A stretch of 64,000 nucleotides of DNA from Alcanivorax sp. (GCA_042090255.1 JBELJS010000010.1:8491-72490); one strand, 5' to 3'. Numbered from the stretch's first letter, positions 1 to 25,968 are shown. The notes: generated by a model from the letters alone, not told the origin. Program-made: numbers and translations.

Positions 1-180
1 GCTATGCAAATCGTTTATGAAATCCGTCGCAAAAGAACAATCGTGACCCAGATCATCGGGAAAATACATAAATAGAACATGCACTTCATTCCCCTTTGAG
101 GCCAAGGATTTGGACAAATCCCGGACGTATATTTCAGCGCCGCCAGCGGCCGGCGAAGAAATCATATGGAGTATTCTCAT
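1..180 (-). CDS. Glycosyltransferase family 4-like, N-terminal fragment (gene runs off the left edge)
   Basis: Reverse complement from 180 reads MRILHMISSPAAGGAEIYVRDLSKSLASKGNEVHVLF. This is the typical GT4 N-terminus (GGAE, GH.V). There is no stop before position 1. Confidence 0.6.
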   Translation of the reverse strand, partial: MRILHMISSPAAGGAEIYVRDLSKSLASKGNEVHVLFMYFPDDLGHDCSFATDFINDLHS

Positions 181-259
181 TAATAGCCCATCCCACCTTG
201 CGATAGGAAATCATTATCAACTAATTATTTACAGTCGAACGTCAACAGAAAAAAAGAAA

Positions 260-1366: not shown

Positions 1367-1490
1367 AAAACTTACCAGTTTTTATACATCTACGTGATAA
1401 TGAACGCTGCGCATGACAACATCGCCACCTGGCCTGCTCTGCTTTACCTATCTAGCAATAAACGGTTGCCTTCAGCGTAAGACGGCCAAA

Positions 1491-2524: not shown

Positions 2525-3709
2525 CTAATGAAGCAAACGCCGGGCTAATAACGCATAGTCCAGCATTTTCCTGGCCATTTTTTCGGATTCTTTCGCCATC
2601 GCCCTTAAATCAACGATTCCCGAACTGATTTTCCCGAGTATAGAATCGATATCTTGCTCACCGCTAACCACCCAACCGTTGTCTTTTGTATAGATGTTAT
2701 GCCCCTCGAGATCCTCAAGGACTGGCACACAACGGCAGCACAGGCTGGTCTGCATGGTAGCGGACTGACTGCCCGGCTGCAGGTAGACGTCCGCACCACA
2801 GAGCAATGCCCGCAGTTCGGCGGGGGTCCGCCAGCCCCAGAACTCAATCCGGTCGTCAGAGTCGATCAGCGCCTGGGCCTGCTCACGGATGTCGTCGAGC
2901 AGGGAGCCAACGAGTACCAGCCGGAAGCGCGGATCAGGGTTGCCGATGAACGCTTTCAGAGTATCTAGAAGTCTTTTGGAAGCGGACTGTTTACCCGATT
3001 GCACGAACAGCACCTGGTCATTGGTCAAGCCCAGTTCCTGGCGTGTGCCTTCTCTAAGGGCGTTGTATTCGTCATCCTCGACCGGGTGACCGCCCAACGG
3101 GTAAAACTCCAGCTTCTCCTCCGGAACACCGTAAAACGTCCTCGCGAACTTTCCAGTCAGCGCCGAGATATAGAGAATTTTGTCGATCCAAGGAAGACAC
3201 AAGTGCACGATGGGTCGGTAATAAAGATAGTGCAGGCCCCACTTGGAGACAGGACCACGGGCGCTGTTGATAAAGTCCGTGTGGGTATCCACGTAAAACT
3301 TCACCTCCGGATGGGCCTTCTTATAGCGGCTGACGGTCACCAGCTCCCAGCCGCACATGCCGTGGAACAGGATCGAGTCCGGCTCGAAGTCTTCCAGGAA
3401 CTGATAGACGCCTCTATGTGGCCTTAGGCTTTTCGCCACGGTATGGGGTACCCATGGATGATAGGGCAAACGAATCACTTCGATGCCCCGCTTACAGCGA
3501 TAATGGCCCGGTTTTACGAACTCACGACGCCGGTCCGTGGTGAAGATCTGCGTCGACGCGATGACCAGCACCTCATGCCCCTGCCGCACGTGCTCTTCCA
3601 CCAGTTCGTTTTCCTGATAGGCCCGGTCATCCATGTAGTAGTTGGACAGGCAAATGTGGGCTATTCTCATAATCGGTTGACCACTATCAGAGTTTGCTGC
3701 GTCACCCAT
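2525..3709 (-). CDS. Glycosyltransferase family 4
   Basis: 394-aa ORF. The start overlaps the wbpO stop by 1 nt (TAATG), which suggests translational coupling. An alternative start is MRIAHICLS at 3670. Confidence 0.7.
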
Positions 3710-4992
3710 TAAAGCCGTAGATCGACGGCTTCTTTGGGCAGCACGTATTTCAGGTCGTAGAGGACGTGCGGGTCGCGGCCCAGTTGGCGGAATTCGCTGG
3801 CGGGCATCGCCTTGAACTCGTCGTGGGCCACGGCCAGGACGACACCGTCATAGCTGGCCACCTGCGGCTTCTCGATGGGCTGGATGCCGTATTCCCGGTA
3901 GGCCTCATCCGGGTTGATCCAGGGGTCGTAGACGTCGACGGTGACGTTGTAGTCCTGGAGCTCGCGGATCACGTCGATCACCCGAGTGTTGCGCAGGTCC
4001 GGGCAGTTTTCCTTGAAGGTCAAGCCCATCACCAGTACCCGGGCGCCGTTGACTTGGATGCATCGGTCCAACATGGCCTTAACCAACTCGCTGGCCACGA
4101 AACGGCCCATGCCGTCGTTGATGCGCCGCCCGGAGAGGATCACTTCCGGGTGGTAACCCACCGCCTGGGCTTTGTGGGTCAGGTAGTAAGGGTCCACGCC
4201 GATGCAGTGGCCACCCACCAGGCCAGGGCGGAACGGCAGGAAGTTCCACTTGGTACCGGCGGCTTCCAGTACCTCCTGGGTGTCGATGTTCATGCGCTTG
4301 AAGATCATCGCCAGTTCGTTGACCAGGGCGATATTCAGGTCTCGCTGGGTGTTCTCGATCACCTTGGCGGCTTCCGCCACCTTGATGCTGGAGGCCCGGT
4401 GGGTGCCGGCGGTAATCACCGAGGCATAGAGCCGGTCCACGGTATCCGCCACTTCCGGAGTGGAGGCGGCCGTGACCTTCATGATGTCGGTGACGCGGTG
4501 GAGCTTATCGCCCGGGTTGATGCGCTCCGGGCTGTAGCCGGCATAAAAGTCCTGGTTAAAGGTGAGACCGGAGACCCGCTCCAGCACCGGTACGCAGTGC
4601 TCCTCGGTGGCACCGGGGAATACCGTGGACTCGTAAATCACGATGTTGCCGGGCTTGAGGGTCTTGCCGATGGTCTCGGACGCCTTGATCAGCGGCGTCA
4701 GGTCCGGCTGGCGGTGCTCATCGATGGGGGTGGGCACCGTGACGATATAGACGTTACAGCCTTCCAGTGCCGCCGGATCGTCGCTGAACGCCAGACCCTC
4801 CGAGGCGGCCAGCTCCGCGTCGCTGAGCTCCCGGGTGAAATCGTGCCCTTCGCGCAGGTCGCGGATGCGGTCGCGGTTCACGTCGAAGCCCACCACCGGG
4901 CGGTGCTTGCCGAACTCCGCGGCCAGGGGCAGGCCCACATAGCCGAGGCCGATCACGGCCAGTTTGATGTCTTCCAGGGAGGGGTGGGTCAT
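3709..4992 (-). CDS. wbpO: UDP-N-acetyl-D-glucosamine 6-dehydrogenase, WbpO/TviB family
   Basis: N-terminal [17 protein letters not shown] Rossmann motif. 427 aa with the nucleotide-sugar dehydrogenase layout. It neighbours the WbpP-like epimerase. Confidence 0.85.
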
Positions 4993-5048
4993 TCTCTTTT
5001 ACCTTGTCTGATCCGGCCTGCGGTTGGGTTAGATTGTACTGATGTAGG

Positions 5049-5060
5049 CACGCTACCGCC
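5049..5060 (-). promoter_or_regulatory. ops (operon polarity suppressor) element, RfaH recruitment site
   Basis: Reverse complement of 5049-5060 is GGCGGTAGCGTG, identical to the enterobacterial ops/JUMPstart core. It lies about 55 nt upstream of the wbpO start. Confidence 0.8.
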
Positions 5061-5120
5061 GCAGGGATTGCCGTCGGTTCCCTGAGGACGGATGCGTTGC
5101 CGGTTTGTCTCTGAGTGGCA

Positions 5121-5182
5121 GGTCTCTGGGATCCTGCCGGCCGGCTTTGCCGGCCTTTCGCGGGCTGGGCCCGCTCCTACAA
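5121..5182. repeat. REP type 1, single arm
   Basis: ggtctctgggatcctgcc + ggccggctttgccggcc hairpin + tttcgcgggctgggcccgctcctacaa. The rfaH stop codon (5177-5179) lies inside it. Confidence 0.9.
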
Positions 5183-5674
5183 CATACTTATGTCTTTCAG
5201 GGCCAGGGTGAGGCGGTGCTGCTTGTGGAGCATGTTGAGCAGCACGATGGCGCGCTCCTGGCCGTCGAAGCGGTGAAATACCGCTTCCATGTCCGCAAAG
5301 GGACCGTGTTCGATGCGCAGGCGGTCGCCCGGACGCAGCGCGGAGCGGTCGTCATTGGCGCTGGTCTGGGTTTGCAGCTTGAGGGCATCGATCACGGAGG
5401 GCGGCACCGCCGCCGGGCGGTCGCCGAAGGCCACTAGTTTGGTCACGCCCCGGGTGGAGCGGATGGTGTGCCAGCCACTGCCCTGCTCGGACAGTTGGAT
5501 AAAGAGGTAGCCGGGGAACAGGGGTTCCTGCCGCTGCACGCGCCGGCCGGCGCGTACCTTTTCAATGCAGAGCTGGGGCTGAAAGCAGGTAAAGCCCTGA
5601 TTTTCCAGGTTCTCCTGGGCCCTGTAGTTCTGGTTGGCGCGGCACTGAACCACGTACCAGCCTGAATCGCTCAT
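5177..5674 (-). CDS. rfaH: Transcription antiterminator RfaH (NusG paralog)
   Basis: 165 aa. GWYVVQCRANQNYRAQENLENQG and EPLFPGYLF align by eye with E. coli RfaH along the whole length. Confidence 0.9.
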   Translation of the reverse strand: MSDSGWYVVQCRANQNYRAQENLENQGFTCFQPQLCIEKVRAGRRVQRQEPLFPGYLFIQLSEQGSGWHTIRSTRGVTKLVAFGDRPAAVPPSVIDALKLQTQTSANDDRSALRPGDRLRIEHGPFADMEAVFHRFDGQERAIVLLNMLHKQHRLTLALKDISML

Positions 5675-5962
5675 GCCGTTTTCCTTTTCGGGGCTCTGCC
5701 CTTACCCGGCCCTTTTGAGGCCGAGTGTCCGTGTTGATGTAGCTTCGCGCGGGGAGGTGACGTTCGCGTGACGGAGCCTACGTTAGCCGGGTGCGGTCAA
5801 CCCGACCGTAGTGCTCAGGTTGGCTTTTGTTGCACCTTCTTACATTTACACACAGTAATCTGATGCCATTGCACACCCTCACTATGATCAATATCACAGT
5901 AAGGGTCGAAAGACAGCCTATGCATCGACTAGGCCTTCCTCCCGAAAACGGAACCTGTAGAT

Positions 5963-6925
<963 letters not shown>

Positions 6926-12294: not shown

Positions 12295-12299
12295 TGGCG

Positions 12300-12423
12300 G
12301 CTTCCTATCCTGATGGTTGGTATGTTTCCCCGGTCCCTGGGGCGAGGATTATCACCCGCAAGTTTTGTCATGCCTATGACACGCAGCGGCATTTTACATT
12401 GTGTTTACGATATTGCTAACCCC
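12300..12423. repeat. Conserved intergenic element, copy 1 (upstream of wzi)
   Basis: About 125 bp, similar to 16506-16630. The core is tatcacccgcaagttttgtca(t/c)gcctatgaca...gcattttacattgtgttt. It contains the palindrome TGTCATnnnnATGACA at 12366-12381. On the minus strand it has TAGGCA (12371-12376), a 17-nt spacer and GATAAT (12348-12353). Confidence 0.85.
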
Positions 12424-12449
12424 GGGTGACAGAACAGCACTCCCCCGGG

Positions 12450-13910
12450 TCATTTGCCACTGGATGGGCGCAATCGGCCGGTTAGGCTGGACACCAGCTT
12501 ACGCAGATCGGCGGCCGGGAGGAGCTTCAGGGCCACGACGGCAACGACCATGGCCAGCAGCAGCAAGGTCTTGGCGATGATCGCCAGCCATAGAGGCACC
12601 TCCGAGGCATCGATCCAGACACCCAAGAAGGATAGCCCGGCGAAACAAAGCATCGCCAGGAAGGCGTTGGACCAGGCGTAGGGGACGGGATAGAGCCGCT
12701 GGCTGATCCACACCCAGCCAAGAAAGAACACCAAGGCACTGGCCAGGGTGGCGATGGCGGCACCGGTGACACCAGCCAGCGGCACCAGGGCCAGGTTGGC
12801 GACCACGCTGACCGTGGCGGACACCAGGGTAAGCCAGAACTGCCAGTAGGTTTTCTTGGTGATCACGATGCCCGGCGCGAAAATGTACATCTGAGACATC
12901 AGCATGGCGGGGGCCAGATAAATCACCAACGACGCCGCCTCGGCATAGGCCGGCTTGGCCAGGACCAGGATCGCTTCCCGGGCGAACGCCGAGAGGAACA
13001 GGCAGGCCGGGAAGGCGAATGCCAGAAACCAACCGAACAGAGTGGCGATTTCACCGGGTGTCTCGGGACGCCGGTGGTTTTCATAGATCAGCGGCGTCAG
13101 CGCTGCTCTGATGCCTATGATCAACAAGGCGGCGATGCCGGCGATGCGGCTGGCGATGCCGAACACACCCACCTCTTCCAGCGACATGAAGTGGTTGAGC
13201 GCCAGCCTGTTCACGTACAGGTTCAGGAACACTAGAAAACCCGCCGGCACCAGAGGCGCCGAGAACCGCAGCATCTTCTTCAGCAGACGGGTGTCGAACA
13301 ACGGGCCGTAACTGGACCGCAGCATGTAAAAACAGGCCAATGACGCGCTCGCGGCGGCCATAAACTGGGCCAGCATCACCCCAACCAGCTTCATATCCAG
13401 AAGCACACAGAACAGCACGGCAAAACACACCGTCAGGAGCGCGTAGGCGACACTAACGGACGCATAGGCCCGGCTTCTCAACTGCCAGCGGAACTGGTTG
13501 AGCAGCAGCAGATAAAGGCCGTTGGCAGCAATGAACAACAGCCCCATGCGAAATGCGGGCAGATACTCCGAATCTCCGAGGAGCGTTGCCGTCAGCGGCT
13601 CGGCGAACCACAGCGCCACGGCCAGCCAGAAACCGTACATGCCGAGGGAGAAAAACAGGGCGGTGCTGGCCAGGCGTCGTTTCTCATCAGCATCGGCGGC
13701 CTCGGCCCAATGCCGGGCCAGCCCCTGGGATATCTCCAGGGCGATAGTCAGATTGGCCAGGGCGCCGAGGGTGATCAGTAAATCATAGGCACCGTACTGT
13801 GAAACCGTGAGAACGTGGGTGTACAAAGGCAACAGGAAAAACGCCATACCTCTAGAAAGTACGGTCGCAAGACCGTAAATGAGACTGTCTCGCAATGCGG
13901 CTTTAAGCAT
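12450..13910 (-). CDS. wzx: Oligosaccharide-unit flippase Wzx (MOP/PST family)
   Basis: 486 aa with about 12-14 hydrophobic segments, in polysaccharide-locus context. It overlaps the upstream gene by 8 nt. Confidence 0.8.
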   Translation of the reverse strand: MLKAALRDSLIYGLATVLSRGMAFFLLPLYTHVLTVSQYGAYDLLITLGALANLTIALEISQGLARHWAEAADADEKRRLASTALFFSLGMYGFWLAVALWFAEPLTATLLGDSEYLPAFRMGLLFIAANGLYLLLLNQFRWQLRSRAYASVSVAYALLTVCFAVLFCVLLDMKLVGVMLAQFMAAASASLACFYMLRSSYGPLFDTRLLKKMLRFSAPLVPAGFLVFLNLYVNRLALNHFMSLEEVGVFGIASRIAGIAALLIIGIRAALTPLIYENHRRPETPGEIATLFGWFLAFAFPACLFLSAFAREAILVLAKPAYAEAASLVIYLAPAMLMSQMYIFAPGIVITKKTYWQFWLTLVSATVSVVANLALVPLAGVTGAAIATLASALVFFLGWVWISQRLYPVPYAWSNAFLAMLCFAGLSFLGVWIDASEVPLWLAIIAKTLLLLAMVVAVVALKLLPAADLRKLVSSLTGRLRPSSGK

Positions 13911-15207
13911 CAGGACTCGCCGGCTGGTTTAACAATTTTGCAAGCTGTTGTTTCAGTTCAGATTTACCTTCCAGCCGAAAAGCCGGCCACCCGAAATGGT
14001 CAACAATATAGCGACCCACCAAAACAATCTGGTCTTGGTCAACACCGCAACCATGAACATATGAGAGCTCTTTGGCTGAGCAGAGCCAACTCGCAGGCAC
14101 GTCGCCGTTTAGCAGCCGCAGATAACGTTGAGCGACCAATCGATTGTCCCACCGACTGTGAATAAAATCGCGTGCGGCCAGCCCCAACTCAGTACGATAC
14201 TTGTGATCGTCGATCAAATTCGCCACGGCTTCCTCCAGCTTATCCGGCATGACATAAACACTCGGAGGCATGTCGTCGCTGGCGATATAATCGCTGGCGC
14301 ATTCAGAAAAGTAGCCCGCCACTACCGTGGGTTTGCCAAAGTGGGCAGCCTCGGTGGCAAAAAAAGCCATAGGCGAATCTGAGTACAACTGGTCGATCAC
14401 GAAATCACACCGGGCCAGCTCTTCCCTCACTTTAGAGTTCGGCACGCCCTTTAGCTCTATGAAATCAATCAAATAGCCTTTCTTCTGAAGCCTGCTCACC
14501 ACTGCACGTATTTCATCAGAGCCTTTGATTAACGGTTTCGAAGGGCTGTGAAGAATACGCACTGCGCGATCTGTCTGTGCGACATCCGTAGCCATCGTAT
14601 GATTCGCTCGTGAAACAGGCACCCCCATTGAAAACCAGTTAACGAAATCTCTCCGATGGAACTGCCCGGTGCCAGGAGCATTGACGACGTAATCAGCTTT
14701 ACGCTCCTGAAACCAAACCTTCTTCGATACTTTCTTAGAGGCGTGGACAGCCCGCGTTGCTGCTTGAGCAGAAGGCACACCTGAAATGCTGCCACCACTC
14801 AGATAAGGCGGGCGACAGTCACTACCAAGATAGACGAATATTATTTTTTTGTTCATTGAGCGCAATAAAAAAAGCTCAAAGCGAGTGTTGGTTATGGTTT
14901 TTCCGTATACGAATATATAAGCGTCAAAAATAAAGGCAGAGTAAAAGAGGACCAACCAAGAGAGCAAGAACTGAAGCCCCCAGACCACACCCTTTAATGG
15001 CAGGGGCATCGACGCATTCTTTGCACGAAAGCTTCCTAAACAGCGCCAAATTCGAACTACCACAGGCTGCTTATCATCCGCGCCATCATAACCAAATGGG
15101 TGGGAAGCGGACAGATAGCTTTCAGCGGACACACCGATAGACCGTAAACCGCTAGTCAAGCCCGCCACAAAGCCAGCCACTTCAACGGTACCTAGCATTA
15201 CTTTCAT
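13903..15207 (-). CDS. Unknown-function protein, paralog A (possibly a divergent GT-B transferase)
   Basis: 434 aa, collinear with the 16755-18047 product. Shared blocks are VNAPGTGQFHR, FVNWFSMGVPVS, VRILHSPSKPL.KGS, IDFIELKGVPN.KVREELARCDFVIDQLYSD.PMAFFATEAAH.GKP.VV. One hydrophobic segment lies near residues 73-95. AT-richer than paralog B. Confidence 0.85.
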   Translation of the reverse strand: MKVMLGTVEVAGFVAGLTSGLRSIGVSAESYLSASHPFGYDGADDKQPVVVRIWRCLGSFRAKNASMPLPLKGVVWGLQFLLSWLVLFYSAFIFDAYIFVYGKTITNTRFELFLLRSMNKKIIFVYLGSDCRPPYLSGGSISGVPSAQAATRAVHASKKVSKKVWFQERKADYVVNAPGTGQFHRRDFVNWFSMGVPVSRANHTMATDVAQTDRAVRILHSPSKPLIKGSDEIRAVVSRLQKKGYLIDFIELKGVPNSKVREELARCDFVIDQLYSDSPMAFFATEAAHFGKPTVVAGYFSECASDYIASDDMPPSVYVMPDKLEEAVANLIDDHKYRTELGLAARDFIHSRWDNRLVAQRYLRLLNGDVPASWLCSAKELSYVHGCGVDQDQIVLVGRYIVDHFGWPAFRLEGKSELKQQLAKLLNQPASPDA

Positions 15208-15248
15208 ATCACCAATCCCTGGATTCTTTATTACTAGGAAACGGCCCG

Positions 15249-15374
15249 CTAGCGCTCAAAGGCCTCGCTTTTTTTTGATCCCTGTGCCAATTGGCCCGGA
15301 CGCAAAACCTCGACCACAGACTCAATCGCCTGCTCGCTGATATTGGGTCTCGACAGGTTGATCATACGGCTCAC
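15249..15374 (-). pseudogene. 5' remnant of a DegT-family aminotransferase gene
   Basis: The minus strand reads (GTG)[24 protein letters not shown], identical to the N-terminus of the 18068-19192 product. It then diverges and stops after 41 codons. It keeps the same GTGA overlap with the upstream SDR gene. Confidence 0.8.
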
Positions 15375-16357
15375 TTACTCTGGAAAAGAGCCGGCATTTC
15401 CGGCAAATCGTCCATATTCTTGGAGATCCACTCACCGGTGCGGAGCAGCCCCTCTTCCAAGTCCACGCGCGCTTCGAAATCGATCAGCTCTTTGGCTTTA
15501 TCCACATTGGGGATGCGCAGCTCGATATCCGCGGAAAGAGCGTCCCTGAAGACGATTTTCGACTTGGAATTCAGTACCCGGCAAATGGTTTGCGCCAGGC
15601 CATAGATCGTCGTGACGGCTCTGGCATTACCGATATTAAAGGACTCGCCTATGGCCTTGGGCATGACCAGGGCCTTCATCAAGGCGTCGATCATATCGTC
15701 GATGTAACACCAAGCACGTATCTGAGCGCCGTCGCCAAAGATATAGATGTCTTCGTTTTTCAGCGCTTTGCGGATCATGATGGAGATAGCGCCCTCGCCG
15801 ATCTGGCCGGGGCCATACACATTAAAAGGCCGGAACGTGACCGTCGGCAGGTTGTGCTGGCGGTGGTAGGCATGGGTCAGGTGCTCGCCGGCCAACTTAC
15901 TGACGGCGTAGGTCCAGCGCGCCTCCCCCACCGCACCGGTGGTAGTGGAATCCACTTCTTCCACGCGGTAGGCCCGCGACCCGAAGACCTCGGAGGTGGA
16001 GAACTCGAGGAAACGCTCGACGGTGCCAGCGGACTGGGCCGCCTCCAGCGCGTTGGCGGTACCGACCATGTTCACGGTCATGGTGTTGACCGGATTAACC
16101 AGGGTATTGTCGATGCCCGCAATCGCGGCGGCGTGGATGAACACTTCCGCCCCCCGGGCCGCTTCTTTGAGAGATTCGCTATCGAGAATATCGCCTTGTT
16201 TCACGGTCAGGTTCTTGTGCCCATACGCAGCACTGCGTTCCAGCGAATTGCGACTGAGGTTGTCGTACGCGACGATCTCGTTGTCTTCGATCAGCTTTCC
16301 AATCAGGGTAGAGCCAATAAATCCGGCACCGCCGGTAATGAAGATCCGTTTTCCTTT
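15301..16357. repeat. Perfect direct repeat, copy 1 (~1057 bp)
   Basis: Offset is 3818 nt to 19119-20175. All ORF-track translations in several frames are identical across the two copies. Identity decays at 15287-15300 and breaks at 16358 and 16365. Confidence 0.9.
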
Positions 16358-16363
16358 GAGCAT
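15371..16363 (-). CDS. NAD-dependent epimerase/dehydratase (extended SDR, ArnA C-terminal-domain-like), copy 1
   Basis: [27 protein letters not shown] (RWxYxxSK as in ArnA-type UDP-GlcA oxidative decarboxylases), FRPFNVYGP. The protein is identical to the 19189-20181 product. Confidence 0.85.
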
Positions 16364-16505
16364 GACGTCTTTCCTTTTTAAGACACTGCAATATTAAAAA
16401 ACGCTTAGGCGCTATCTCTATTCTCTATTTATTGAGGCATCAAGATTTCAGCAAACCAATCCGCCGCTGGGCGACCTCATCGCCAACCAGAAGAGCTGCT
16501 CTGCA

Positions 16506-16630
16506 GCTTCCTATCCTGATAATTTGTGTGTAGATCCCATCTTCCTGGGTCGAGGAGTATCACCCGCAAGTTTTGTCACGCCTATGACAGGCAGACGCAT
16601 TTTACATTGTGTTTCCTATACTGCTAACCC
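16506..16630. repeat. Conserved intergenic element, copy 2 (upstream of SDR copy 1)
   Basis: Similar to 12300-12423. On the minus strand: TAGGCG (16579-16584), 17-nt spacer, GATACT (16556-16561). Confidence 0.85.
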
Positions 16631-16754
16631 TGAGCGACTAAACGGTCAAAGGATTCTGTTGGATTGCTGGGCTGGGCCAGCTACCAAAGGGGTCATTGAT
16701 ACCGCGGGCCTTCTGTCGCGCAGTGCCGGGCTGAACATTTTCGTCCTCAAGTGG

Positions 16755-18047
16755 CTAACTTAACAGGTGCGCAAGGCGTTCTTCCAAGGCAGGCTTTCCC
16801 CGGAGCTGAAATGCATCCCATCCGTAGTGATCGAATATATAGTGGCCCATGGCTTTGAATTCTTTCTCAGACACCCCCAGCCCGCCCAGGTACGATAGTT
16901 CCGCTGGCGAGCACCACCAACTGTCGGGCACGTCATCGTTGAGCAAGGCCAGATAACGCCGTGCCACTGCCTCGTTACGCCAGCGTCCGCGCACAAAATG
17001 GCGGGCGGCGGCGCCCAACTTGGCCCGGTAATCCCTGTCATCAATAAGGCGGGCTACGGCTTCTTCTAGCTGATCCGGCAATACATAGGCGCTGGGTGGG
17101 ATGTCCTCGCTATGGAGGTACCGGTTCACGTAAGTGGAGAAATATCCCCCAACCACCGCGGGCTTTCCGTAGTGTGCCGCCTCGGTGGCGAAGAATGCCA
17201 TCGGCGTGTCGGAGTAGAGCTGGTCGATAACAAAGTCACAGCGCGCCAGCTCCTCTCTGACTTTAGCGTTCGGGACGCCTTTCAGCTCTATAAAGTCAAT
17301 GGCATAACCCCTTTTCCTGAGACTGGCGATTACAGCGCGTATCTCATTGGACCCTTTCAAAAGGGGTTTCGAGGGGCTATGGAGGATACGTACCGGGCGG
17401 CTTTCCTGGGTGTCGCCCTCGGGAGGCGACTCCTCGGCTTCCGATACCGGGACGCCCATGGAAAACCAGTTCACAAACTTCTTGCGGTGAAACTGGCCAG
17501 TGCCCGGCGCATTCACCATGTAATGCGCGTAGCGCTCCTGAAACTGAACTGCTTTTGATACCTTTCTTGATGCTCTAACGACTCTTGGCGCCGCTTTATC
17601 AGGGGCCATACCCGCGCAATAGCCGCCGCTCATGTACGGCGGGCGGGAATCACTGCCCAGGGAGACGAATATTATCTTTTTCCCGAGAAGGCGCAGTAAC
17701 CACAACTCGAAGCGGGTATTGGTGAACGTCTTTCCAGCAACGAAAATATAGGCGTCGAATAGACGTACCGAACGGAACAGAACGAACCAGGCGATCACGT
17801 TCTGGGCCGCGAGAAGGGCCGCCCGGATAAGGAACGGCAACGGGGGCGTCCTCTGAAACAAGGTCCCCAGATGCCGCCAAATGCGGACGGTCGGGCTTTT
17901 CTTCTCCTCCTCGTCGCCATAGGAGAAAGAATGCCGCTCCGATACATAGCTTTCGGCATCGACGCCGAGCTTCCGTAGACCCTGAACCAGATTGGCGACG
18001 AAGCCAGCAGTTTCCACGGGCGCAATCAGCACTTTCATGTCACGCAT
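16755..18047 (-). CDS. Unknown-function protein, paralog B (possibly a divergent GT-B transferase)
   Basis: 430 aa, collinear with paralog A with roughly 60 percent identity by eye. It shares the same conserved blocks and the same hydrophobic segment. Confidence 0.85.
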   Translation of the reverse strand: MRDMKVLIAPVETAGFVANLVQGLRKLGVDAESYVSERHSFSYGDEEEKKSPTVRIWRHLGTLFQRTPPLPFLIRAALLAAQNVIAWFVLFRSVRLFDAYIFVAGKTFTNTRFELWLLRLLGKKIIFVSLGSDSRPPYMSGGYCAGMAPDKAAPRVVRASRKVSKAVQFQERYAHYMVNAPGTGQFHRKKFVNWFSMGVPVSEAEESPPEGDTQESRPVRILHSPSKPLLKGSNEIRAVIASLRKRGYAIDFIELKGVPNAKVREELARCDFVIDQLYSDTPMAFFATEAAHYGKPAVVGGYFSTYVNRYLHSEDIPPSAYVLPDQLEEAVARLIDDRDYRAKLGAAARHFVRGRWRNEAVARRYLALLNDDVPDSWWCSPAELSYLGGLGVSEKEFKAMGHYIFDHYGWDAFQLRGKPALEERLAHLLS

Positions 18048-18067: not shown

Positions 18068-19192
18068 CTAGTCAACGCCTGATAACACCGCCGTCAAACT
18101 CTCGGCAACCTGGCGTATCTGGTCCGGCGTCATGCGCTCATACAGCGGCAGCGCCAGTCCCTGGGCGTACAAATTCGGCCCCACTTCGCATGTACCCGAC
18201 GCAGGCCCGTAGAGACCGATTTCCTGCATGCTCTGGGCGCCGAGATTGGATTCGATGCCCGCCGCCTTGAGCTTCGCTATCACCTCGGCGCGATCAAAAC
18301 GGCCATTGAGCACCACCATGAAGGTCTGCCAGCTGTGGCCCGGATCGGCGTTTGGCAGGGTCAACAACCCCTCACCGGCGAGCGCGGCCAGATTTTCCAT
18401 GTACAGCGCGGCTAGCTCTCGACGATCACTGACCCAGCCGTCCAAGGACGGTAACTGGGCCCGACCCAACGCCGCCTGGAAGTTCGTTAGCCGATAGTTC
18501 AGCGACGGCTCCACAAAGCGCATACCGGTATCGGTACGCTCCATACCGTGGTTGCGGAGGCGACGCGCCCGTTGGGCCAGCTCTTGATTGTCGGTGGTCA
18601 GCAACCCGCCCTCGCCGGTGGTCAGGGTCTTGCGCGGGTGAAAGGAAAAACAAGCCAGATCACCAAAGGTGCCGGTTTGACGCCCGTTGAGGTTCGCCCC
18701 CAAAGCGCAGGCCGCGTCTTCGACCACATAAAGACCGTGCTTTTCCGCGATGCCGCTGATCGCGGTCATGTCGGCGGGATGCCCGAATTCGTGGACCGGC
18801 ATCACGGCCCTCAAGCGCTCTGGACCGCGCCAGCCTTCGATGATCTCGCGCAACCGCTGTGGATCCAGGTTGTAGGTATCCGCCCTGACATCCACCAACA
18901 CGGGGCGTGCGCCCACGGCCACTACTGCATTTGCCGTGGCGGGAAAGGTAAAGTCAGGAATCAGGACCGCGTCGCCAGCGCCAACATCGAGGGTCATCAA
19001 CGCCAAGTGCAACGCCGCGGTGCCCGAGGACACCAGAATGGCCTCCCGGGAGCCGAGATACGCGGCCAGTTCTTGTTCAAAGGTTTCGCTTTCGGGGCCA
19101 TGCACCAATTGCCCCGAGCGCAAAACCTCGACCACAGACTCAATCGCCTGCTCGCTGATATTGGGTCTCGACAGGTTGATCATACGGCTCAC
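18068..19192 (-). CDS. DegT/DnrJ/EryC1/StrS-family sugar aminotransferase (PLP-dependent), GTG start
   Basis: 374 aa. [34 protein letters not shown] (PLP-lysine region). It overlaps the upstream SDR gene by 4 nt. Confidence 0.85.
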
Positions 19193-20175
19193 TTACTCTG
19201 GAAAAGAGCCGGCATTTCCGGCAAATCGTCCATATTCTTGGAGATCCACTCACCGGTGCGGAGCAGCCCCTCTTCCAAGTCCACGCGCGCTTCGAAATCG
19301 ATCAGCTCTTTGGCTTTATCCACATTGGGGATGCGCAGCTCGATATCCGCGGAAAGAGCGTCCCTGAAGACGATTTTCGACTTGGAATTCAGTACCCGGC
19401 AAATGGTTTGCGCCAGGCCATAGATCGTCGTGACGGCTCTGGCATTACCGATATTAAAGGACTCGCCTATGGCCTTGGGCATGACCAGGGCCTTCATCAA
19501 GGCGTCGATCATATCGTCGATGTAACACCAAGCACGTATCTGAGCGCCGTCGCCAAAGATATAGATGTCTTCGTTTTTCAGCGCTTTGCGGATCATGATG
19601 GAGATAGCGCCCTCGCCGATCTGGCCGGGGCCATACACATTAAAAGGCCGGAACGTGACCGTCGGCAGGTTGTGCTGGCGGTGGTAGGCATGGGTCAGGT
19701 GCTCGCCGGCCAACTTACTGACGGCGTAGGTCCAGCGCGCCTCCCCCACCGCACCGGTGGTAGTGGAATCCACTTCTTCCACGCGGTAGGCCCGCGACCC
19801 GAAGACCTCGGAGGTGGAGAACTCGAGGAAACGCTCGACGGTGCCAGCGGACTGGGCCGCCTCCAGCGCGTTGGCGGTACCGACCATGTTCACGGTCATG
19901 GTGTTGACCGGATTAACCAGGGTATTGTCGATGCCCGCAATCGCGGCGGCGTGGATGAACACTTCCGCCCCCCGGGCCGCTTCTTTGAGAGATTCGCTAT
20001 CGAGAATATCGCCTTGTTTCACGGTCAGGTTCTTGTGCCCATACGCAGCACTGCGTTCCAGCGAATTGCGACTGAGGTTGTCGTACGCGACGATCTCGTT
20101 GTCTTCGATCAGCTTTCCAATCAGGGTAGAGCCAATAAATCCGGCACCGCCGGTAATGAAGATCCGTTTTCCTTT
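19119..20175. repeat. Perfect direct repeat, copy 2 (~1057 bp)
   Basis: See 15301-16357. Confidence 0.9.
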
Positions 20176-20181
20176 AAGCAT
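19189..20181 (-). CDS. NAD-dependent epimerase/dehydratase (extended SDR, ArnA C-terminal-domain-like), copy 2
   Basis: 330 aa, identical to the 15371-16363 product. Confidence 0.85.
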
Positions 20182-20195
20182 GCTGCGTTATCTCT

Positions 20196-21287
20196 CTACG
20201 ATTCGGTGGTGGCCGCCAGGACACGGGCTATGCGCTCCACGTCCTCTGGCGAAAGGTATGGATGCATTGGCAAACTGACCACCTGCTCCGCGGCTTTGTC
20301 GCCCACCGGCAGGGACACGCTGGCGTCCCCCACGGCCGGCTGTCGATTGAGCGGGATCGGGTAATGCACAGCCGTCGGAATACCGGCGGCGGCAAGTGCC
20401 TCACGTACTGCGTCTCGTTGTTCCACACGGATGGTGTATTGCGCCCAGGCACTGGTATTGCCGGGCTCACAGTGCGGCACGGTTACCGCACCCAGCTCGT
20501 CGAGCAGTTCGTTATAGCGTGTCGCCACCTGATTACGCAGGGCGATTTCTTCCTGCAGCAGATCGAGTTTGGGTAACAGTATGGCGGCTTGCAGAGTATC
20601 CAGGCGGCTGTTGATGCCGACTCTGACGTGGTGATAGCGGCGGTCCTGGCCGTGCCTGGCGATCTGCCGCATCACCTTGGCCAGGTCTTCGTGGTCGGTG
20701 AAGATAGCACCACCGTCGCCGTAGCACCCGAGCGGCTTGCTGGGGAAAAAGCTGGTACAGCCGATGGTGCTCAGGGCGCAGGACTTGCCGCCGTGGCTAC
20801 TGGCGCCGAAGCTCTGGGCCCCGTCTTCGATAACCGGAAGGCTGTGTTTTTCGGCTATCCGATTGATGGTTTCAAAATCCGCGCATTGCCCATATAGAGA
20901 GACAGGAATAATTGCTTTGGTTCTCGGGGTTATCGCCGCTTCCATCGCCGCTGGACTGATATTGTAGGTGCGCGGCTCAATGTCCACATAGACTGGCTTT
21001 GCACCCAACAGGGCCGGGGTCTCGGCAGTGGCGATATAGCTGAAACCCGGCACAATGACTTCGTCTCCCGGGCCGATACCCAGCGCCATCTGAGCGATTT
21101 GCAGGGCATCGGTACCGTTAGCGACGGTAATACAGTATTTCACCCCGAGATAAGCAGCGAGGCGTTCTTCAAGCTCATCCACTTCCGGCCCCAGAATATA
21201 CTTGCCGTGGGCTAGAACACGTTGGATGTTCTCGTCGATGGTGTCTTTGATGCGGGCTTGCTGGGCAGCGAGATCGATGAACTGCAT
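20196..21287 (-). CDS. wbpE: UDP-2-acetamido-2-deoxy-3-oxo-D-glucuronate aminotransferase, WbpE family (DegT)
   Basis: MQFIDLAAQQARIK...HGKYILGPEV.ELE..LA.YLGVKY, SFFPSKPLGCYGDGG. It abuts the WbpD-like gene. Confidence 0.8.
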   Translation of the reverse strand: MQFIDLAAQQARIKDTIDENIQRVLAHGKYILGPEVDELEERLAAYLGVKYCITVANGTDALQIAQMALGIGPGDEVIVPGFSYIATAETPALLGAKPVYVDIEPRTYNISPAAMEAAITPRTKAIIPVSLYGQCADFETINRIAEKHSLPVIEDGAQSFGASSHGGKSCALSTIGCTSFFPSKPLGCYGDGGAIFTDHEDLAKVMRQIARHGQDRRYHHVRVGINSRLDTLQAAILLPKLDLLQEEIALRNQVATRYNELLDELGAVTVPHCEPGNTSAWAQYTIRVEQRDAVREALAAAGIPTAVHYPIPLNRQPAVGDASVSLPVGDKAAEQVVSLPMHPYLSPEDVERIARVLAATTES

Positions 21288-21872
21288 TCAGGCGGCCTCG
21301 CTCTTGCGGACGGTCTGTCCGCTCAGGGTATAGACGGCGCCGGTGTGCTCGCACACCACCTTTCCTTCGCCGCTGAGCGGCAAATCAAGCTGCTCGCCGA
21401 ACTCGCTCATCCAACCGATCTGTTTGCCGGGCACACCCACCACAAGAGCGTAATCGGGCACGTCTTTATTGATCACCGCGCCAGCGCCCACGAAGGCGAA
21501 AGCACCAACGGTCACGCCGCACACCAGGGTGCAATTGGCGCCCAGGCTGGCGCCCTTCTTTACCAGGGTGTCGCGGTATTCGTCCTTGCGCTCGATCAGC
21601 GAGCGAGGGTTGTAGACGTTGGTGAACACCATGCTCGGGCCGCAGAACACGCCCTCTTCCAGATGCACGTTGTCGTACACCGAAACGTTATTCTGGATTT
21701 TGCAATTGTCGCCGATGGTAACCTTATTGCCGACGAAAACGCCCTGCCCCATGGACACGTTACGCCCGATGCGGGCGCCGCCGCATACATGGACGAAGTG
21801 CCACACCCGTGAGCCGCTGCCAATTTGTGCGCCGTCATCCACAATGGCGCTTTCGTGAACCTGGTAATCCAT
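21288..21872 (-). CDS. wbpD: UDP-2-acetamido-3-amino-2,3-dideoxy-D-glucuronate N-acetyltransferase, WbpD family (left-handed beta-helix)
   Basis: Hexapeptide repeats, [16 protein letters not shown]. 194 aa, directly upstream of wbpE. Confidence 0.8.
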
Positions 21873-23554: not shown

Positions 23555-24169
23555 TTACACGCCGATCTTGGCGATCAGCTGGCGCACGCACTCGCCGATG
23601 TCGTTGTCAGCGGTGTTAATTACCACTTCCGCGTTGGCGGGCGCTTCGTAGGGGCTGTCGATGCCGGTGAATTCTTTGATCTCGCCGGCGCGGGCTTTCT
23701 TGTAGAGGCCCTTGGGGTCGCGCTTTTCGCACTCTTCCAGCGGCGCGTCGGCGAACACTTCCACGAACTCGCCGTCCTCGAACAGGGCGCGGGCGGCGTC
23801 CCGGTCGGCGCGGAACGGGCTGATAAACGCAGTGATCACCACCAGGCCGGCGTCGACCATCAGCTTGGCCACTTCGGACACCCGGCGGATGTTCTCGGTG
23901 CGGTCTTCGTCGCTCATGCCCAGGTTCTTGTTCAGGCCGTGGCGCACGTTGTCACCGTCCAGCAGGTAGGTGTGCTTGCCTTGCTCGGTGAGCGCCACTT
24001 CCAGGGCGTTGGCCAGGGTCGACTTGCCGGAGCCGGACAGGCCGGTGAGCCAGATGCACTTGGGCACCTGGTTCTTTTGCTTGGCGCGGTCGTCCTTGGT
24101 GATGTGGGTTTGGTGCCAGATCACTTCGGCCTGGGATTCGTTGTCGCGCTTTTCGTAGGGGCCTGACAT
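23555..24169 (-). CDS. cysC: Adenylyl-sulfate (APS) kinase
   Basis: [15 protein letters not shown]-loop, 204 aa, whole-length APS kinase pattern. Confidence 0.9.
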
Positions 24170-24195
24170 AAAGGGTCTCCTGTTAAGTGGGTGGC

Positions 24196-25968
24196 TTAGA
24201 ACGGCCAGATCAGGGGGATCAGCGAGGTGCTCACGGCAAGGGCGACCAGGCTCATGGGCACGCCGATCTTCAGGTAATCGGTGAAACGGTAGCCGCCGGG
24301 GCCCATGACCATGAGGTTGGTCTGGTAGCCCAACGGGGTCATGAAGCTGGCGCTGGCGGCGAACATAACCGCGACGATGAACGGCAGCGGGCTGACGCCG
24401 AGCTGCTCGGCGACGCCGGTGGCGATCGGGAACACCAGTACGGCGGCGGCGTTGTTGGTGATCACTTCGGTGAACAGGGCGGTGATCAGGTACACCAGCA
24501 GCAAGGCCAGCCAGGGGCTCTGTATGCTGTCACCGAGCATGGCGTCGACGATCCAGGCGGCGGTGCCGCTCTGCTCCAAGGCGGTGCCGAGGGCGAAGGC
24601 GGCTCCGATCACCACCAGCACGGGCAGGTTGACGCTGACGTTCATGCGCGCCCGGTTAACGGTGACGCAGCGGGTGACCAGCAGCAGGCCGGCGGCCAGG
24701 AAGGCGGCCTCGAGCACGGACACCAGGCCGATCACGTTGACGCCGACCATGGCCACCAGGATCACCGTGGCCAGCGGCGCACGGCTGAAGTCTGGCGGGG
24801 TGGAGTCGCTCAGCGGGCTGACCAGCATGAAGTCGCGGCGGTACTGGTACTGCTCGACGAAGGTGTCGCTGGTTTCCAGCAGCAGGGTGTCGCCGGTGCG
24901 CAGCACCTGCTCGCCGACCTTGCCGGGCAGACGGCGGCCGCCGCGGCTGATGCTGAGGATGGCGGCCTGGTAGCGGGTGCGGAAGCCGGTGTCCTTGACG
25001 GTTTTGTTGACGCCGGGGAATTCCGGGCCCAGCACCACTTCCACCAGGCAGCGCTGGTGGTTAGTGAGACGCAGCTTGTGGGCGCCGCCGTGGGCGGGGA
25101 TCAGGCCGTTGACGCGCTGCAGCTCGCGGGCGCACTCCGGGGCGCCGATAAAGGCGAGCTGGTCGCCGGCCTGCAGCAGCTGGTCCGGGCCGACGGCGGT
25201 GAACAGCTTCTCGCCGCGCTGGATCTCGGTGAGATAGCCGTGGGTGAGGTTACGCAGGCCGGCGTCCTGGATGCTTTTGTTGTGCAGCGGGCTGCCTTCG
25301 GGGATCACCATCTCTACGTGGTATTCGCGGGCCTGTTCGACCTGCTCGACCAGCCCTTCGCGCTCGGGCAGCAGGCGGCGGGCGAACAGCAGCAGAAACA
25401 CGGAGCCGGCGATCAACAGCGGCACGCCCACCCAGGCCATATCGAAGATGTGAAAGCCTTCCATGCCCCGGTTCTGCATCATGCCATCCACCACCAGGTT
25501 GGTGCTGGTGCCGATCAGTGTGCAGGTGCCGCCGAGGATGGCGGCGTAGCTGAGCGGCAACAGGAGCTGGGAAGCGGAGAGTTTTAAACGTTGGGCCCAC
25601 TCCTGGACCGCCGGGATCATCATCGCCACCACGGTGGTGTTGTTGAGGAAGGCGCTGAGTATCGAGGTGGGCAAAATCAGCCGGCTTTGGCTGCCCAGCG
25701 CGCTCTTGGGCTGGCCGAGCAGCTTGTGGGCCACCCAGTAGATAGCACCGGTGTCACGCAGGGCGGCGGCCACCACATAGAGCACCGCCACGGTGATCAA
25801 CCCCGGGTTGGCGAAGCCGGCCAGGGCCTGGTCCACGGTGATCACATCGCCCACCAGCACCGCCACCAGGGCGGCCATCATGGTGACCTCGGCAGGCACG
25901 CGGTTGGACGCCAGCGCCGCCAGCACCGCAAGCACCACCAGCGATGTGTAGATCATTTCCGGAGTCAT
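24196..25968 (-). CDS. SLC13/DASS-family anion permease with two central TrkA-C domains
   Basis: 590 aa. Hydrophobic N- and C-terminal halves flank a soluble segment ([21 protein letters not shown]...). It lies 26 nt upstream of cysC. Confidence 0.8.

What the first reader, a model, noticed from the sequence alone, without database searches (positions are those of the whole stretch)
13903..18047. Two diverged paralogs of an uncharacterised ~430-aa protein, each downstream of an SDR module: candidate novel transferases or polymerases
The 13903-15207 and 16755-18047 products are collinear at roughly 60 percent identity. They share long invariant blocks: VNAPGTGQFHR, FVNWFSMGVPVS, RILHSPSKPL.KGS, and IDFIELKGVPN.KVREELARCDFVIDQLYSD.PMAFFATEAAH.GKP.VV.

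I do not recognise the family. The C-terminal half looks like a GT-B Rossmann domain. The last block resembles the GT4 E..7..E region, and ILHSPSKP is reminiscent of the ILYAPT start of TagF-like domains. The N-terminal half carries one hydrophobic segment.

No wzy is visible in the window. These two are the only locus genes without an assignable role. Each is positioned as the consumer of the sugar made by the adjacent SDR and aminotransferase module.
Basis: partly seen in the sequence, partly recalled or inferred. Interest (0 to 1): 0.65.

Follow-up and report, generated by a model that had tools for sequence, protein, structure and literature searches.

The report
Two divergent GT-B capsule glycosyltransferases
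The two ~430-aa proteins are real, diverged paralogs of a widespread but unmodelled glycosyltransferase family that sits between rare amino-sugar synthesis genes and the flippase gene, so they are most likely ordinary sugar-adding enzymes of a capsule locus, not polymerases.

Summary
ORFs 13903-15207(-) and 16755-18047(-) encode 434- and 430-aa proteins that are 62% identical without gaps, and every quoted motif is present.

They match no Pfam or NCBIfam model above cutoff. An AlphaFold model (pLDDT 94.7) is a two-Rossmann GT-B fold, and its best PDB matches are retaining GT4/GT5 enzymes (glycogen synthase, MshA, PglA, BshA). A profile comparison aligns the C-domain to a genuine GT4.

The family is large, with about 1,460 50%-identity clusters at E<=1e-30 across bacteria and archaea. 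NCBI and JGI already often label its members "glycosyltransferase".

In 50 of 71 loci the gene lies directly upstream of wzx. It usually lies downstream of WbpA/B/D/E-type genes plus an SDR and an aminotransferase.

The window's SDR is 79-80% identical to Pcryo_0617 (PDB 8VR2), the oxidoreductase/decarboxylase of Psychrobacter cryohalolentis K5, whose O-antigen contains 2,3,4-triacetamido-2,3,4-trideoxy-L-arabinose. The likely donors are therefore UDP-2,3-diacetamido sugars.

"No wzy" is a window-edge effect: a polytopic candidate lies about 1 kb past position 1. The "SDR before each paralog" layout is a relic of a module duplication.

Verdict: a new member of a known kind, of modest interest.

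The parts
13903..15207 (-). Paralog A, 434 aa. GT-B fold glycosyltransferase of an unmodelled GT4-like family. Its stop overlaps the wzx start by 8 nt.
   Evidence: ORF. AF2 pLDDT 94.7. Foldseek hits to GT4/GT5 enzymes. Family invariants G128 R132 H220 K228 G229 Y275 P279 E286. dN/dS 0.17 against the 96%-identical orthologue in L001.
16755..18047 (-). Paralog B, 430 aa, 62% identical to A. The likely true start is the Met at codon 4. It is the orthologue (94%) of the single-copy gene in Alcanivorax sp. UBA4485.
   Evidence: Weak Glyco_trans_1_2 and Glycos_transf_1 hits below cutoff. dN/dS 0.14.
19189..20181 (-). SDR copy 1, 330 aa: UDP-sugar 4-oxidoreductase/decarboxylase of the Pcryo_0617 type.
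   Evidence: phmmer E=8e-179 to PDB 8vr2. The Foldseek entry title reads 'Pcryo_0617 oxidoreductase/decarboxylase from Psychrobacter cryohalolentis K5', 79-80% identity, TM 0.9.
18068..19192 (-). DegT-family sugar aminotransferase, 374 aa, the presumed C4 aminotransferase acting on the SDR product.
   Evidence: Pfam DegT E=4e-111. PDB 8vr3/8vr5/9bgp/9bgr at E about 1e-131, then perosamine synthase and ArnB.
15371..16363 (-). SDR copy 2, with a protein identical to copy 1.
   Evidence: In the related contig L001 the two copies are 92% identical at the nucleotide level, with dN/dS 0.03 and dS 0.39.
15301..16357 (.). 1,057-nt perfect direct repeat with 19119-20175. It covers the SDR gene plus the first ~70 nt of the aminotransferase gene.
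   Evidence: Exact-run scan and alignment A2.
15252..15374 (-). Remnant of the 5' end of a second aminotransferase gene: 40 codons, 80% identical to residues 1-40 of the intact one.
   Evidence: tblastn E=9e-17. A 37-aa ORF is called at the same place in L001 and L003.
16503..16638 (-). Intergenic element downstream of paralog B that repeats the wzx-wzi intergenic region (12297-12430; 82% over 136 nt). It carries a promoter-like TTAGCA-17-TAAAAT.
   Evidence: (repeat family D2).
12450..13910 (-). Wzx flippase, 486 aa. It is the conserved downstream partner of the family.
   Evidence: Pfam Polysacc_synt. A Wzx homologue starts within 400 nt after the family gene in 50 of 71 loci.
20196..21872 (-). 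WbpE-like aminotransferase (20196-21287) and WbpD-like hexapeptide N-acetyltransferase (21288-21872), which make the 3-acetamido group of UDP-GlcNAc3NAcA.
   Evidence: WbpE structures appear among the PDB relatives of the DegT family. Orthologues at >=50% identity occur in 22 (WbpE) and 31 (WbpD) of 58 family loci.
3709..6922 (-). WbpA-like UDP-sugar 6-dehydrogenase (3709-4992), NusG/RfaH paralog (5177-5674) and WbpB-like Gfo/Idh/MocA oxidoreductase (5963-6922).

Best explanation
Both proteins are cytoplasmic, membrane-peripheral GT-B fold, Leloir-type glycosyltransferases. They belong to a large GT4-like family that has no curated model. They add sugars to the undecaprenyl-diphosphate-linked repeat unit of this Alcanivorax-type Wzx/Wzy capsule before Wzx flips it.

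Shown here:
- The fold.
- C-domain homology to GT4.
- The conserved K228-G229 and E286, which align with the diphosphate-binding Lys and the second Glu of the GT4 EX7E motif.
- Purifying selection on both copies.
- Conserved placement between amino-sugar genes and wzx.

Inferred, at about 0.4:
- The donors are the UDP-2,3-diacetamido sugars made by the surrounding genes. WbpA/B/E/D give UDP-GlcNAc3NAcA. The Pcryo_0617-type SDR and the aminotransferase convert it to a UDP-2,3-diacetamido-4-amino-2,3,4-trideoxy-L-arabinose derivative.
- The C (donor) domains are 73% identical and the N (acceptor) domains 58%, with residues 61-80 almost unrelated. The two paralogs therefore probably take the same or closely related donors but different acceptors, and install two such residues per repeat.

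The SDR-before-each-paralog layout is history rather than function. A module SDR-AT-GT-wzx-IGR was duplicated. The first wzx and the second aminotransferase were then lost. In this strain the two SDR copies were homogenised by gene conversion.
For: Fold and homology:
- AF2 model pLDDT 94.7, pTM 0.93, with two beta/alpha/beta domains.
- Foldseek gives 113 PDB matches at E<=1e-3. The top ones are glycogen synthase 3fro, MshA 3c48/3c4q, PglA 8dvz, BshA 6d9t/3mbo and GlgM 6tvp.
- hhalign of the family profile against a genuine GT4 gives probability 82%, E=1e-5, over residues 211-357.
- Sub-threshold hits are all to GT4/Glycos_transf_1 models.
- The invariants G128, R132, H220, K228, G229, Y275, P279 and E286 hold across the long and short forms.
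- dN/dS is 0.17 for A and 0.14 for B.

Context:
- wzx follows directly in 50 of 71 loci.
- A DegT aminotransferase is present in 52 of 58 loci.
- Orthologues of the window's Wbp or SDR/AT enzymes are present in 45 of 58 loci.
- A Pcryo_0617-type SDR is present in 26 of 58 loci.
- Short-form relatives with an N-terminal TM helix occupy the same slot after the complete pathway in Idiomarina, Pseudoalteromonas and a Psychrobacter-like contig.
- The sugar is in the P. cryohalolentis O-antigen (PMC8040287).

Duplication history.
Against: - No member has been assayed, and no sequence hit passes a curated threshold.
- TM-scores to solved GT-B enzymes are only about 0.5.
- The first Glu of EX7E is not conserved. 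It is D277, shifted by one position, in long forms and Ala/Phe in short forms.
- 13 of 58 loci with enough flank carry neither Wbp nor SDR/AT orthologues, so the family is not strictly tied to this pathway.
- One contig with the SDR-AT pair (L087) shows no family member in the ~10 kb held downstream of the pair, to the contig end.
- The window has no N-acyltransferase next to the C4 aminotransferase, so the exact donor is uncertain.
- I could not show a family member in P. cryohalolentis K5 itself.
Confidence: 0.7

Rival explanations
1. They are ordinary serotype-specific GT-B glycosyltransferases. Their donors are common sugars such as GlcA from the adjacent Ugd, GalNAcA or hexoses. The adjacency to the SDR/AT module and to wzx only reflects how polysaccharide cassettes are packed and exchanged.
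For: - 13 of 58 loci lack Wbp or SDR/AT orthologues.
- The locus has four further GT genes that could handle the rare sugars: window 260-1366 and 2525-3709, plus two GT4 genes in L006.
- A UDP-glucose 6-dehydrogenase lies in the same operon.
- L087 has the SDR-AT pair and no family member in the ~10 kb held downstream of the pair.
Against: - The gene order AT/acyltransferase - family gene - wzx recurs from Proteobacteria to Bacteroidota, Chloroflexota and Methanosarcina.
- It also recurs for the very divergent short form (about 19% identity) after the same pathway.
- Such persistence across phyla is hard to explain without a functional link.
Confidence: 0.2
2. They are GT-B fold enzymes that are not Leloir glycosyltransferases. 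Candidates are a TagF-like phosphotransferase or polymerase, a pyruvyl or other group transferase, or a UDP-sugar hydrolase or 2-epimerase acting on the rare sugar.
For: - An invariant His (H220) sits where GT4 enzymes have Gly-Arg.
- UDP-GlcNAc 2-epimerases (3ot5, 1v4v, 3beo, MnaA 5enz) appear among the fold matches.
- No curated GT model is passed.
Against: - The best fold and profile matches are glycosyltransferases.
- All weak sequence hits are to GT4 families.
- There is no hit to Glyphos_transf, Epimerase_2 or PS_pyruv_trans even at E<=1.
- Separate Epimerase_2 genes occur in 21 family loci, so that role is already filled.
Confidence: 0.07
3. They replace Wzy and polymerise the repeat unit.
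For: No wzy is encoded within the 64-kb window.
Against: - Each protein has a single hydrophobic segment and a soluble GT-B fold, whereas Wzy enzymes are polytopic and act in the periplasm.
- A 391-aa protein with 8 hydrophobic segments lies between two GT4 genes about 1 kb beyond window position 1, on a contig 100% identical to window 1-1903.
- Wzx, Wza, Wzb, Wzc and Wzi are all present.
Confidence: 0.02
4. One paralog is a redundant, decaying by-product of the module duplication, and only one copy is functional.
For: The duplicated module is visibly decaying elsewhere. The second aminotransferase is reduced to 40 codons and the first wzx copy is gone. The related Alcanivorax sp. UBA4485 manages with a single copy.
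Against: - Both ORFs are intact and keep every family invariant.
- dN/dS is 0.14-0.17 against orthologues in an independent contig that has the same two-copy layout.
- A and B belong to old, separately maintained lineages. A is 96/90/73% identical to P0001-P0004, and B is 94/91/87% identical to L007, P0011 and P0009.
Confidence: 0.08

Closest known systems
GT4-type retaining GT-B glycosyltransferases acting on lipid-linked or small acceptors (PglA of Campylobacter, PDB 8dvz; MshA 3c48; BshA 6d9t; PimB 3okc)
   Same: - Two-Rossmann GT-B fold.
- C-domain with a Lys-Gly after the first strand and a Glu that aligns with the second Glu of EX7E.
- A C-terminal helix motif similar to PglA and PimB.
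- PglA likewise glycosylates an Und-PP-linked di-N-acetyl amino sugar in a Wzx-type pathway (function from the PDB molecule name).
   Different: - Sequence identity is only 11-16%.
- It fails the Pfam and NCBIfam cutoffs.
- His replaces the usual Gly-Arg before the Lys-Gly.
- The first EX7E Glu is not conserved.
- There is an extra helical hairpin (residues ~49-93) in the N-domain and a ~65-aa C-terminal extension with its own invariant residues (W374, P378, Y383, G386, G388).
Short-form relatives (385-393 aa) upstream of wzx in Idiomarina, Pseudoalteromonas, Vibrio, Shewanella and Psychrobacter-like genomes
   Same: - Same slot: after WbpA/B/D/E, the Pcryo_0617-type SDR, the AT and an N-acyl-modifying enzyme, and directly before wzx.
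- Shared core motifs GS[DE]xR, xHxPS..KG[ST] and Y..P......E.
   Different: About 19% identity. An N-terminal transmembrane helix replaces the internal hairpin. There is no C-terminal extension. D268, D272 and D277 are not conserved.
The P. cryohalolentis K5 pathway enzymes (Pcryo_0617 oxidoreductase/decarboxylase, PDB 8VR2, and the aminotransferases 8VR3/8VR5)
   Same: The window's SDR is 79-80% identical to Pcryo_0617. Its aminotransferase matches 8vr3 and 8vr5 at E about 1e-131. These define the probable donor-sugar pathway.
   Different: These are the neighbours of the finding, not the finding itself. No glycosyltransferase for the resulting sugar turned up in the literature searches run here. 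The window lacks an adjacent N-acetyltransferase for the 4-amino group.
WecF (GT56, TDP-Fuc4NAc:lipid II transferase of enterobacterial common antigen)
   Same: From my own knowledge: a transferase for a 4-acylamino sugar, encoded next to its aminotransferase (wecE) and flippase (wzxE).
   Different: There is no hit to Glyco_transf_56 at E<=1. This is an analogy of gene organisation only.

Membership tests
GT-B fold glycosyltransferase superfamily | Two Rossmann-like beta/alpha/beta domains separated by a cleft, with C-terminal helices packing back | tested here: met
   AF2 model pLDDT 94.7. Strands 2-7, 27-32, 96-100, 121-125, 173-176 and 188-190 form the N-domain; strands 216-220, 247-251, 269-274, 294-297 and 317-319 form the C-domain. 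There are 113 PDB matches at E<=1e-3, and the top 50 are essentially all GT-B enzymes.
GT4-like (Glycos_transf_1) family | Score above the curated Pfam gathering threshold for PF00534, PF13692 or PF13524 | tested here: not met
   Paralog A has no hit. Paralog B scores 17.1 bits against a cutoff of 25 (PF13524) and 14 against 26.4 (PF00534). Only 9 and 5 of 64 family members reach E<=0.01.
GT4-like (Glycos_transf_1) family | C-domain nucleotide-sugar motifs: Arg/Lys after the first C-domain strand, and E-X7-E | tested here: inconclusive
   K228-G229 and E286 are invariant, and E286 aligns with the second Glu of a genuine GT4. The first Glu position is Ser278, with D277 adjacent, in long forms and is not acidic in short forms. 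His220 replaces the usual Gly-Arg.
GT4-like (Glycos_transf_1) family | Retaining transfer from a nucleotide sugar, shown by enzyme activity | not testable with these tools
   This needs an in vitro assay.
Wzy O-antigen/capsule polymerase | Polytopic inner-membrane protein with about 8-14 TM segments | tested here: not met
   Each paralog has one hydrophobic 19-residue window. The candidate just outside the window has eight.
TagF-like CDP-glycerol glycerophosphotransferase (PF04464) | A match to the Glyphos_transf model or a TagF-like structure | tested here: not met
   No Pfam hit at E<=1, and none among the top 50 structural matches.
WecF / GT56 | A match to PF07429 | tested here: not met
   No hit at E<=1.
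Pcryo_0617-type UDP-sugar oxidoreductase/decarboxylase (the adjacent SDR) | Close sequence and structural match to PDB 8VR2 | tested here: met
   596 bits, E=8e-179, 79-80% identity, TM 0.9. Activity on UDP-GlcNAc3NAcA was not tested here.

The most novel reading that the evidence does not exclude
The family, in its long and short forms, is the dedicated transferase for UDP-2,3-diacetamido sugars: GlcNAc3NAcA-type uronates and their decarboxylated 2,3,4-triamino-L-arabinose derivatives. It travels with a matching Wzx flippase as a mobile sugar-GT-flippase cassette across bacterial phyla and into methanogenic archaea. The two window paralogs install two such residues on different acceptors.
Probability: 0.35. 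Interest if true: 0.5.

Novelty: new member of a known kind. Interest (0 to 1): 0.33.

Why it matters
The biosynthesis of 2,3-diacetamido uronic acids has been worked out enzyme by enzyme, and more recently that of the triacetamido-arabinose of Psychrobacter. The literature searches run here turned up no transferase that puts these sugars into a polymer.

This family is the most consistent unassigned gene next to that pathway, so it is a concrete candidate to test. It is also a sizeable gap in the curated models: about 1,460 clusters at 50% identity with no Pfam or NCBIfam model.

For this window the practical result is an annotation. The two genes are glycosyltransferases. The locus is a complete Wzx/Wzy capsule locus whose wzy lies just outside the window. 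The duplicated SDR is a recombination relic.

Tried and rejected
- Direct sequence searches of PDB with one protein and with the family profile gave only a 46-residue match to the C-terminal helix of PglA/PimB (E 0.005-0.7). That was not enough alone.
- hhalign against the window's own GT4 (2525-3709) gave nothing (probability 0.3%). Only the stronger Motiliproteus GT4 aligned.
- I looked for the paper behind 8VR2/8VR3/8VR5/9BGP and for Pcryo_06xx locus tags. None is in the held library. The enzyme name was recovered from the PDB entry title through a structure search instead.
- I tried to show a family member in P. cryohalolentis K5 itself by searching with the short-form protein from a Psychrobacter-like contig.
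- The TagF 'ILYAPT' idea, the Wzy-substitute idea and a WecF relationship were all rejected (see the membership tests).
- I checked whether the stretch between the paralog B stop and the repeated intergenic element keeps a wzx remnant. No significant tblastn hit was found.
- The candidate Wzy has no Pfam hit even at E<=1. Its assignment rests only on topology and position.

Full report
**Observation**

The window has two minus-strand ORFs, 13903-15207 (434 aa, paralog A) and 16755-18047 (430 aa, paralog B). BLASTP aligns them end to end without gaps at 62% identity and 74% positives.

In the direction of transcription the order is: Ugd, WbpD-like acetyltransferase, WbpE-like aminotransferase, SDR, aminotransferase, B, SDR, A, Wzx, Wzi, Wza, Wzb, Wzc, WbpB-like oxidoreductase, NusG/RfaH paralog, WbpA-like dehydrogenase, GT4, epimerase, GT. 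So each paralog is indeed preceded by an SDR.

**What the proteins are**

Neither protein reaches any Pfam or NCBIfam cutoff. The only weak hits are to GT4/Glycos_transf_1-type models over the C-terminal third. A phmmer or profile search of PDB finds only a 46-residue match to the last helices of PglA and PimB.

The family is nevertheless large:
- 225 or more hits in the word-indexed search, many named 'glycosyltransferase' or 'glycosyltransferase family 4 protein' by NCBI and JGI, and none with a precomputed Pfam domain.
- 181 genome hits spread over Proteobacteria, Bacteroidota, Chloroflexota, Planctomycetota, Verrucomicrobiota, Armatimonadota and the archaea Methanosarcina and Methanoculleus.
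- 1,459 50%-identity clusters at E<=1e-30 in an exhaustive profile search.

With a 64-sequence alignment, AlphaFold gives a confident model (pLDDT 94.7, pTM 0.93) with two beta/alpha/beta domains. Foldseek against PDB returns 113 matches at E<=1e-3. The list is headed by retaining GT-B enzymes: Pyrococcus glycogen synthase, MshA, PglA, BshA, GlgM, HepE and TreT. TM-scores are about 0.5, as expected when the two domains open and close.

A profile comparison with a genuine GT4 from a related locus aligns residues 211-357 (probability 82%, E=1e-5). It places E286 on the second Glu of the GT4 EX7E motif.

Eight residues are invariant across the long form and a very divergent short form (about 19% identity): G128 and R132 (GS[DE]xR, N-domain), H220 (xHxPS), K228-G229, Y275, P279 and E286. 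K228 and E286 sit where GT4 enzymes bind the diphosphate and the ribose of the donor (established GT4 knowledge).

Differences from canonical GT4:
- His in place of Gly-Arg.
- A non-conserved first Glu.
- A helical hairpin (about residues 49-93) that contains the single hydrophobic segment.
- A conserved ~65-aa C-terminal extension.

I therefore file the proteins as GT-B glycosyltransferases of a GT4-like but unmodelled family. I do not file them as members of Pfam Glycos_transf_1.

**Context elsewhere**

I called genes in 79 non-redundant loci and clustered the neighbours, then named the clusters with Pfam and NCBIfam.

Downstream neighbours:
- The gene immediately downstream, on the same strand, is a ~480-aa, ~11-TM Polysacc_synt protein (Wzx).
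- By tblastn, a Wzx homologue starts within 400 nt of the family gene's stop in 50 of 71 loci with enough flank.
- An asparagine-synthase-like amidotransferase often follows, in 33 loci.

Upstream neighbours:
- SDRs in 53 loci.
- DegT aminotransferases in 48 loci by clustering, and in 52 of 58 loci by tblastn.
- Hexapeptide acetyltransferases in 54 loci.
- Alternatively formyltransferases, or the WbuX/HisH/HisF amidino-forming trio.
- UDP-GlcNAc 2-epimerase-family genes in 21 loci.

Orthologues (>=50% identity) of the window's WbpA/B/D/E or SDR/AT proteins occur in 45 of 58 loci, and the window-type SDR in 26 of 58.

**The neighbouring SDR**

The SDR is 79-80% identical to PDB 8VR2. The entry title reads 'Pcryo_0617 oxidoreductase/decarboxylase from Psychrobacter cryohalolentis K5'. 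Its next-best relatives are UDP-glucuronate decarboxylases.

The aminotransferase matches 8VR3/8VR5/9BGP/9BGR at about 1e-131, then perosamine synthase and ArnB.

P. cryohalolentis K5 has an O-antigen with 2,3,4-triacetamido-2,3,4-trideoxy-L-arabinose, a 2,3-diacetamido uronic acid and di-N-acetylbacillosamine (PMC8040287; reference list of PMC10622841). The window plus its extension L006 encodes the matching set:
- WbpA/B/E/D.
- The decarboxylase and the aminotransferase.
- A PglC/PglD-type initiating module.

That the SDR acts on UDP-GlcNAc3NAcA is my inference from gene order and from recollection of the Holden laboratory's work. The paper is not in the held library.

Starting from SDR homologues, I found the same pathway followed by a 385-393-aa 'no Pfam' protein directly before wzx in Idiomarina, Pseudoalteromonas xiamenensis and a Psychrobacter-like contig. 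Those proteins hit the family HMM at 1e-23 to 1e-32 and carry an N-terminal TM helix. One other contig with the SDR-AT pair has no family member in the ~10 kb held downstream of the pair, to the contig end.

**Mechanism proposed**

The paralogs are peripheral-membrane Leloir glycosyltransferases that extend the Und-PP-linked repeat unit on the cytoplasmic face.

The most likely donors are the UDP-2,3-diacetamido sugars made next door. I put this at about 0.4 because the association is strong but not exclusive, and because other GTs are present in the locus.

A and B are 73% identical in the C (donor) domain, 58.5% in the N (acceptor) domain and 2/20 in residues 61-80. This fits similar donors with different acceptors.

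Both copies are under purifying selection. dN/dS is 0.17 for A and 0.14 for B against orthologues in an independent metagenomic contig with the same two-copy layout.

**History of the layout**

B is the orthologue (94%) of the single family gene in Alcanivorax sp. UBA4485, where the order is SDR-AT-GT-wzx-wzi. A belongs to a different, old allele lineage (96/90/73% to P0001-P0004).

Three traces of a duplication remain in the window:
- The SDR and the first ~70 nt of the aminotransferase gene are repeated perfectly over 1,057 nt.
- A 40-codon aminotransferase remnant follows the second SDR.
- The intergenic region after B repeats the wzx-wzi intergenic region, 82% over 136 nt, including a promoter-like site.

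In the related contig L001 the two SDR copies are only 92% identical (dS 0.39, dN/dS 0.03). The simplest reading has four steps:
- An SDR-AT-GT-wzx-IGR module was duplicated or brought in by recombination.
- The first wzx copy was lost.
- Most of the second aminotransferase gene was lost.
- The SDR copies were recently homogenised by gene conversion in this strain.

'One SDR module per paralog' is therefore history, not a one-to-one functional pairing.

**The missing wzy**

A Logan contig (L006) is 100% identical to window 1-1903 and continues past position 1. It encodes a GT4, then a 391-aa protein with eight hydrophobic segments and no Pfam hit, then another GT4, a Bac_transf initiating transferase and a PglD-like acetyltransferase. 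Position and topology make the 391-aa protein the likely Wzy. With Wzx, Wza, Wzb, Wzc and Wzi present, there is no need for, and no structural basis for, a polymerase role for A or B.

**Verdict**

The 'transferase' reading is supported, and the 'polymerase', 'TagF-like' and 'unrecognised family' readings are not.

These are new members of a known kind: GT-B glycosyltransferases of a GT4-like family that lacks a curated model and any characterised member. The useful lead is the cross-phylum linkage of this family to the 2,3-diacetamido / triamino-arabinose sugar pathway and to wzx. That linkage makes the family a concrete candidate for the transferase of those sugars, for which the literature searches run here found none described.

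Noticed in passing
window 15301-16357 and 19119-20175: A 1,057-nt perfect direct repeat lies 3.8 kb apart inside one operon. It is a substrate for deletion of paralog B plus the aminotransferase by homologous recombination, and a possible assembly hazard. In the related contig L001 the same two copies are only 92% identical, which points to recent gene conversion here.
   Followed up: yes
L006:2834-4009 (about 0.9-2.1 kb beyond window position 1): A 391-aa protein with 8 hydrophobic segments and no Pfam hit lies between two GT4 genes. It is the likely Wzy polymerase of this locus. It is followed by a Bac_transf initiating transferase and a PglD-like acetyltransferase, a di-N-acetylbacillosamine-type start.
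   Followed up: partly
window 5053-5060 (-) and 5177-5674 (-): A NusG/RfaH paralog is encoded inside the capsule locus. An exact ops-like GGCGGTAG lies on the coding strand about 60 nt upstream of the next gene (WbpA-like, start at 4992). The motif count in the window (4, against 2.4 expected) is not significant in itself; the position is what is suggestive.
   Followed up: partly
window 18068-19192 and flanks: No N-acyltransferase follows the C4 aminotransferase here or in Alcanivorax sp. UBA4485. Idiomarina, Pseudoalteromonas, Motiliproteus and the Psychrobacter-like contig do have an acetyl- or formyltransferase at that place. The 4-amino group may stay free or be acylated by the WbpD-like or PglD-like enzyme.
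   Followed up: no
window 23555-25968 (-): An APS kinase (CysC-type) and a CitMHS/TrkA_C-domain anion permease lie directly upstream of the capsule operon on the same strand, in this window and in L001. This may supply PAPS for a sulfated polysaccharide, but no sulfotransferase was looked for.
   Followed up: no
loci L010, L021, L061 and others: Many family loci carry a second, different SDR/aminotransferase pair (about 30-35% identical to the window's) together with WbpE/WbpD orthologues, followed by formyl-, acetyl- or amidino-forming enzymes. This may be an alternative route to related 4-amino sugars.
   Followed up: partly
window 1-2000 and 14001-18000: G+C is 46-55% in the glycosyltransferase-rich parts of the locus, against 62-67% in the rest of the window. 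This is typical of horizontally exchanged serotype-specific regions.
   Followed up: no
loci L057, L064, L079, L026: Several unrelated genomes (Opitutales, Anaerolineae, Oxalobacteraceae, Longimicrobiaceae) also carry two or three family members in one locus. Multiplication of this GT within a cluster is therefore recurrent.
   Followed up: no
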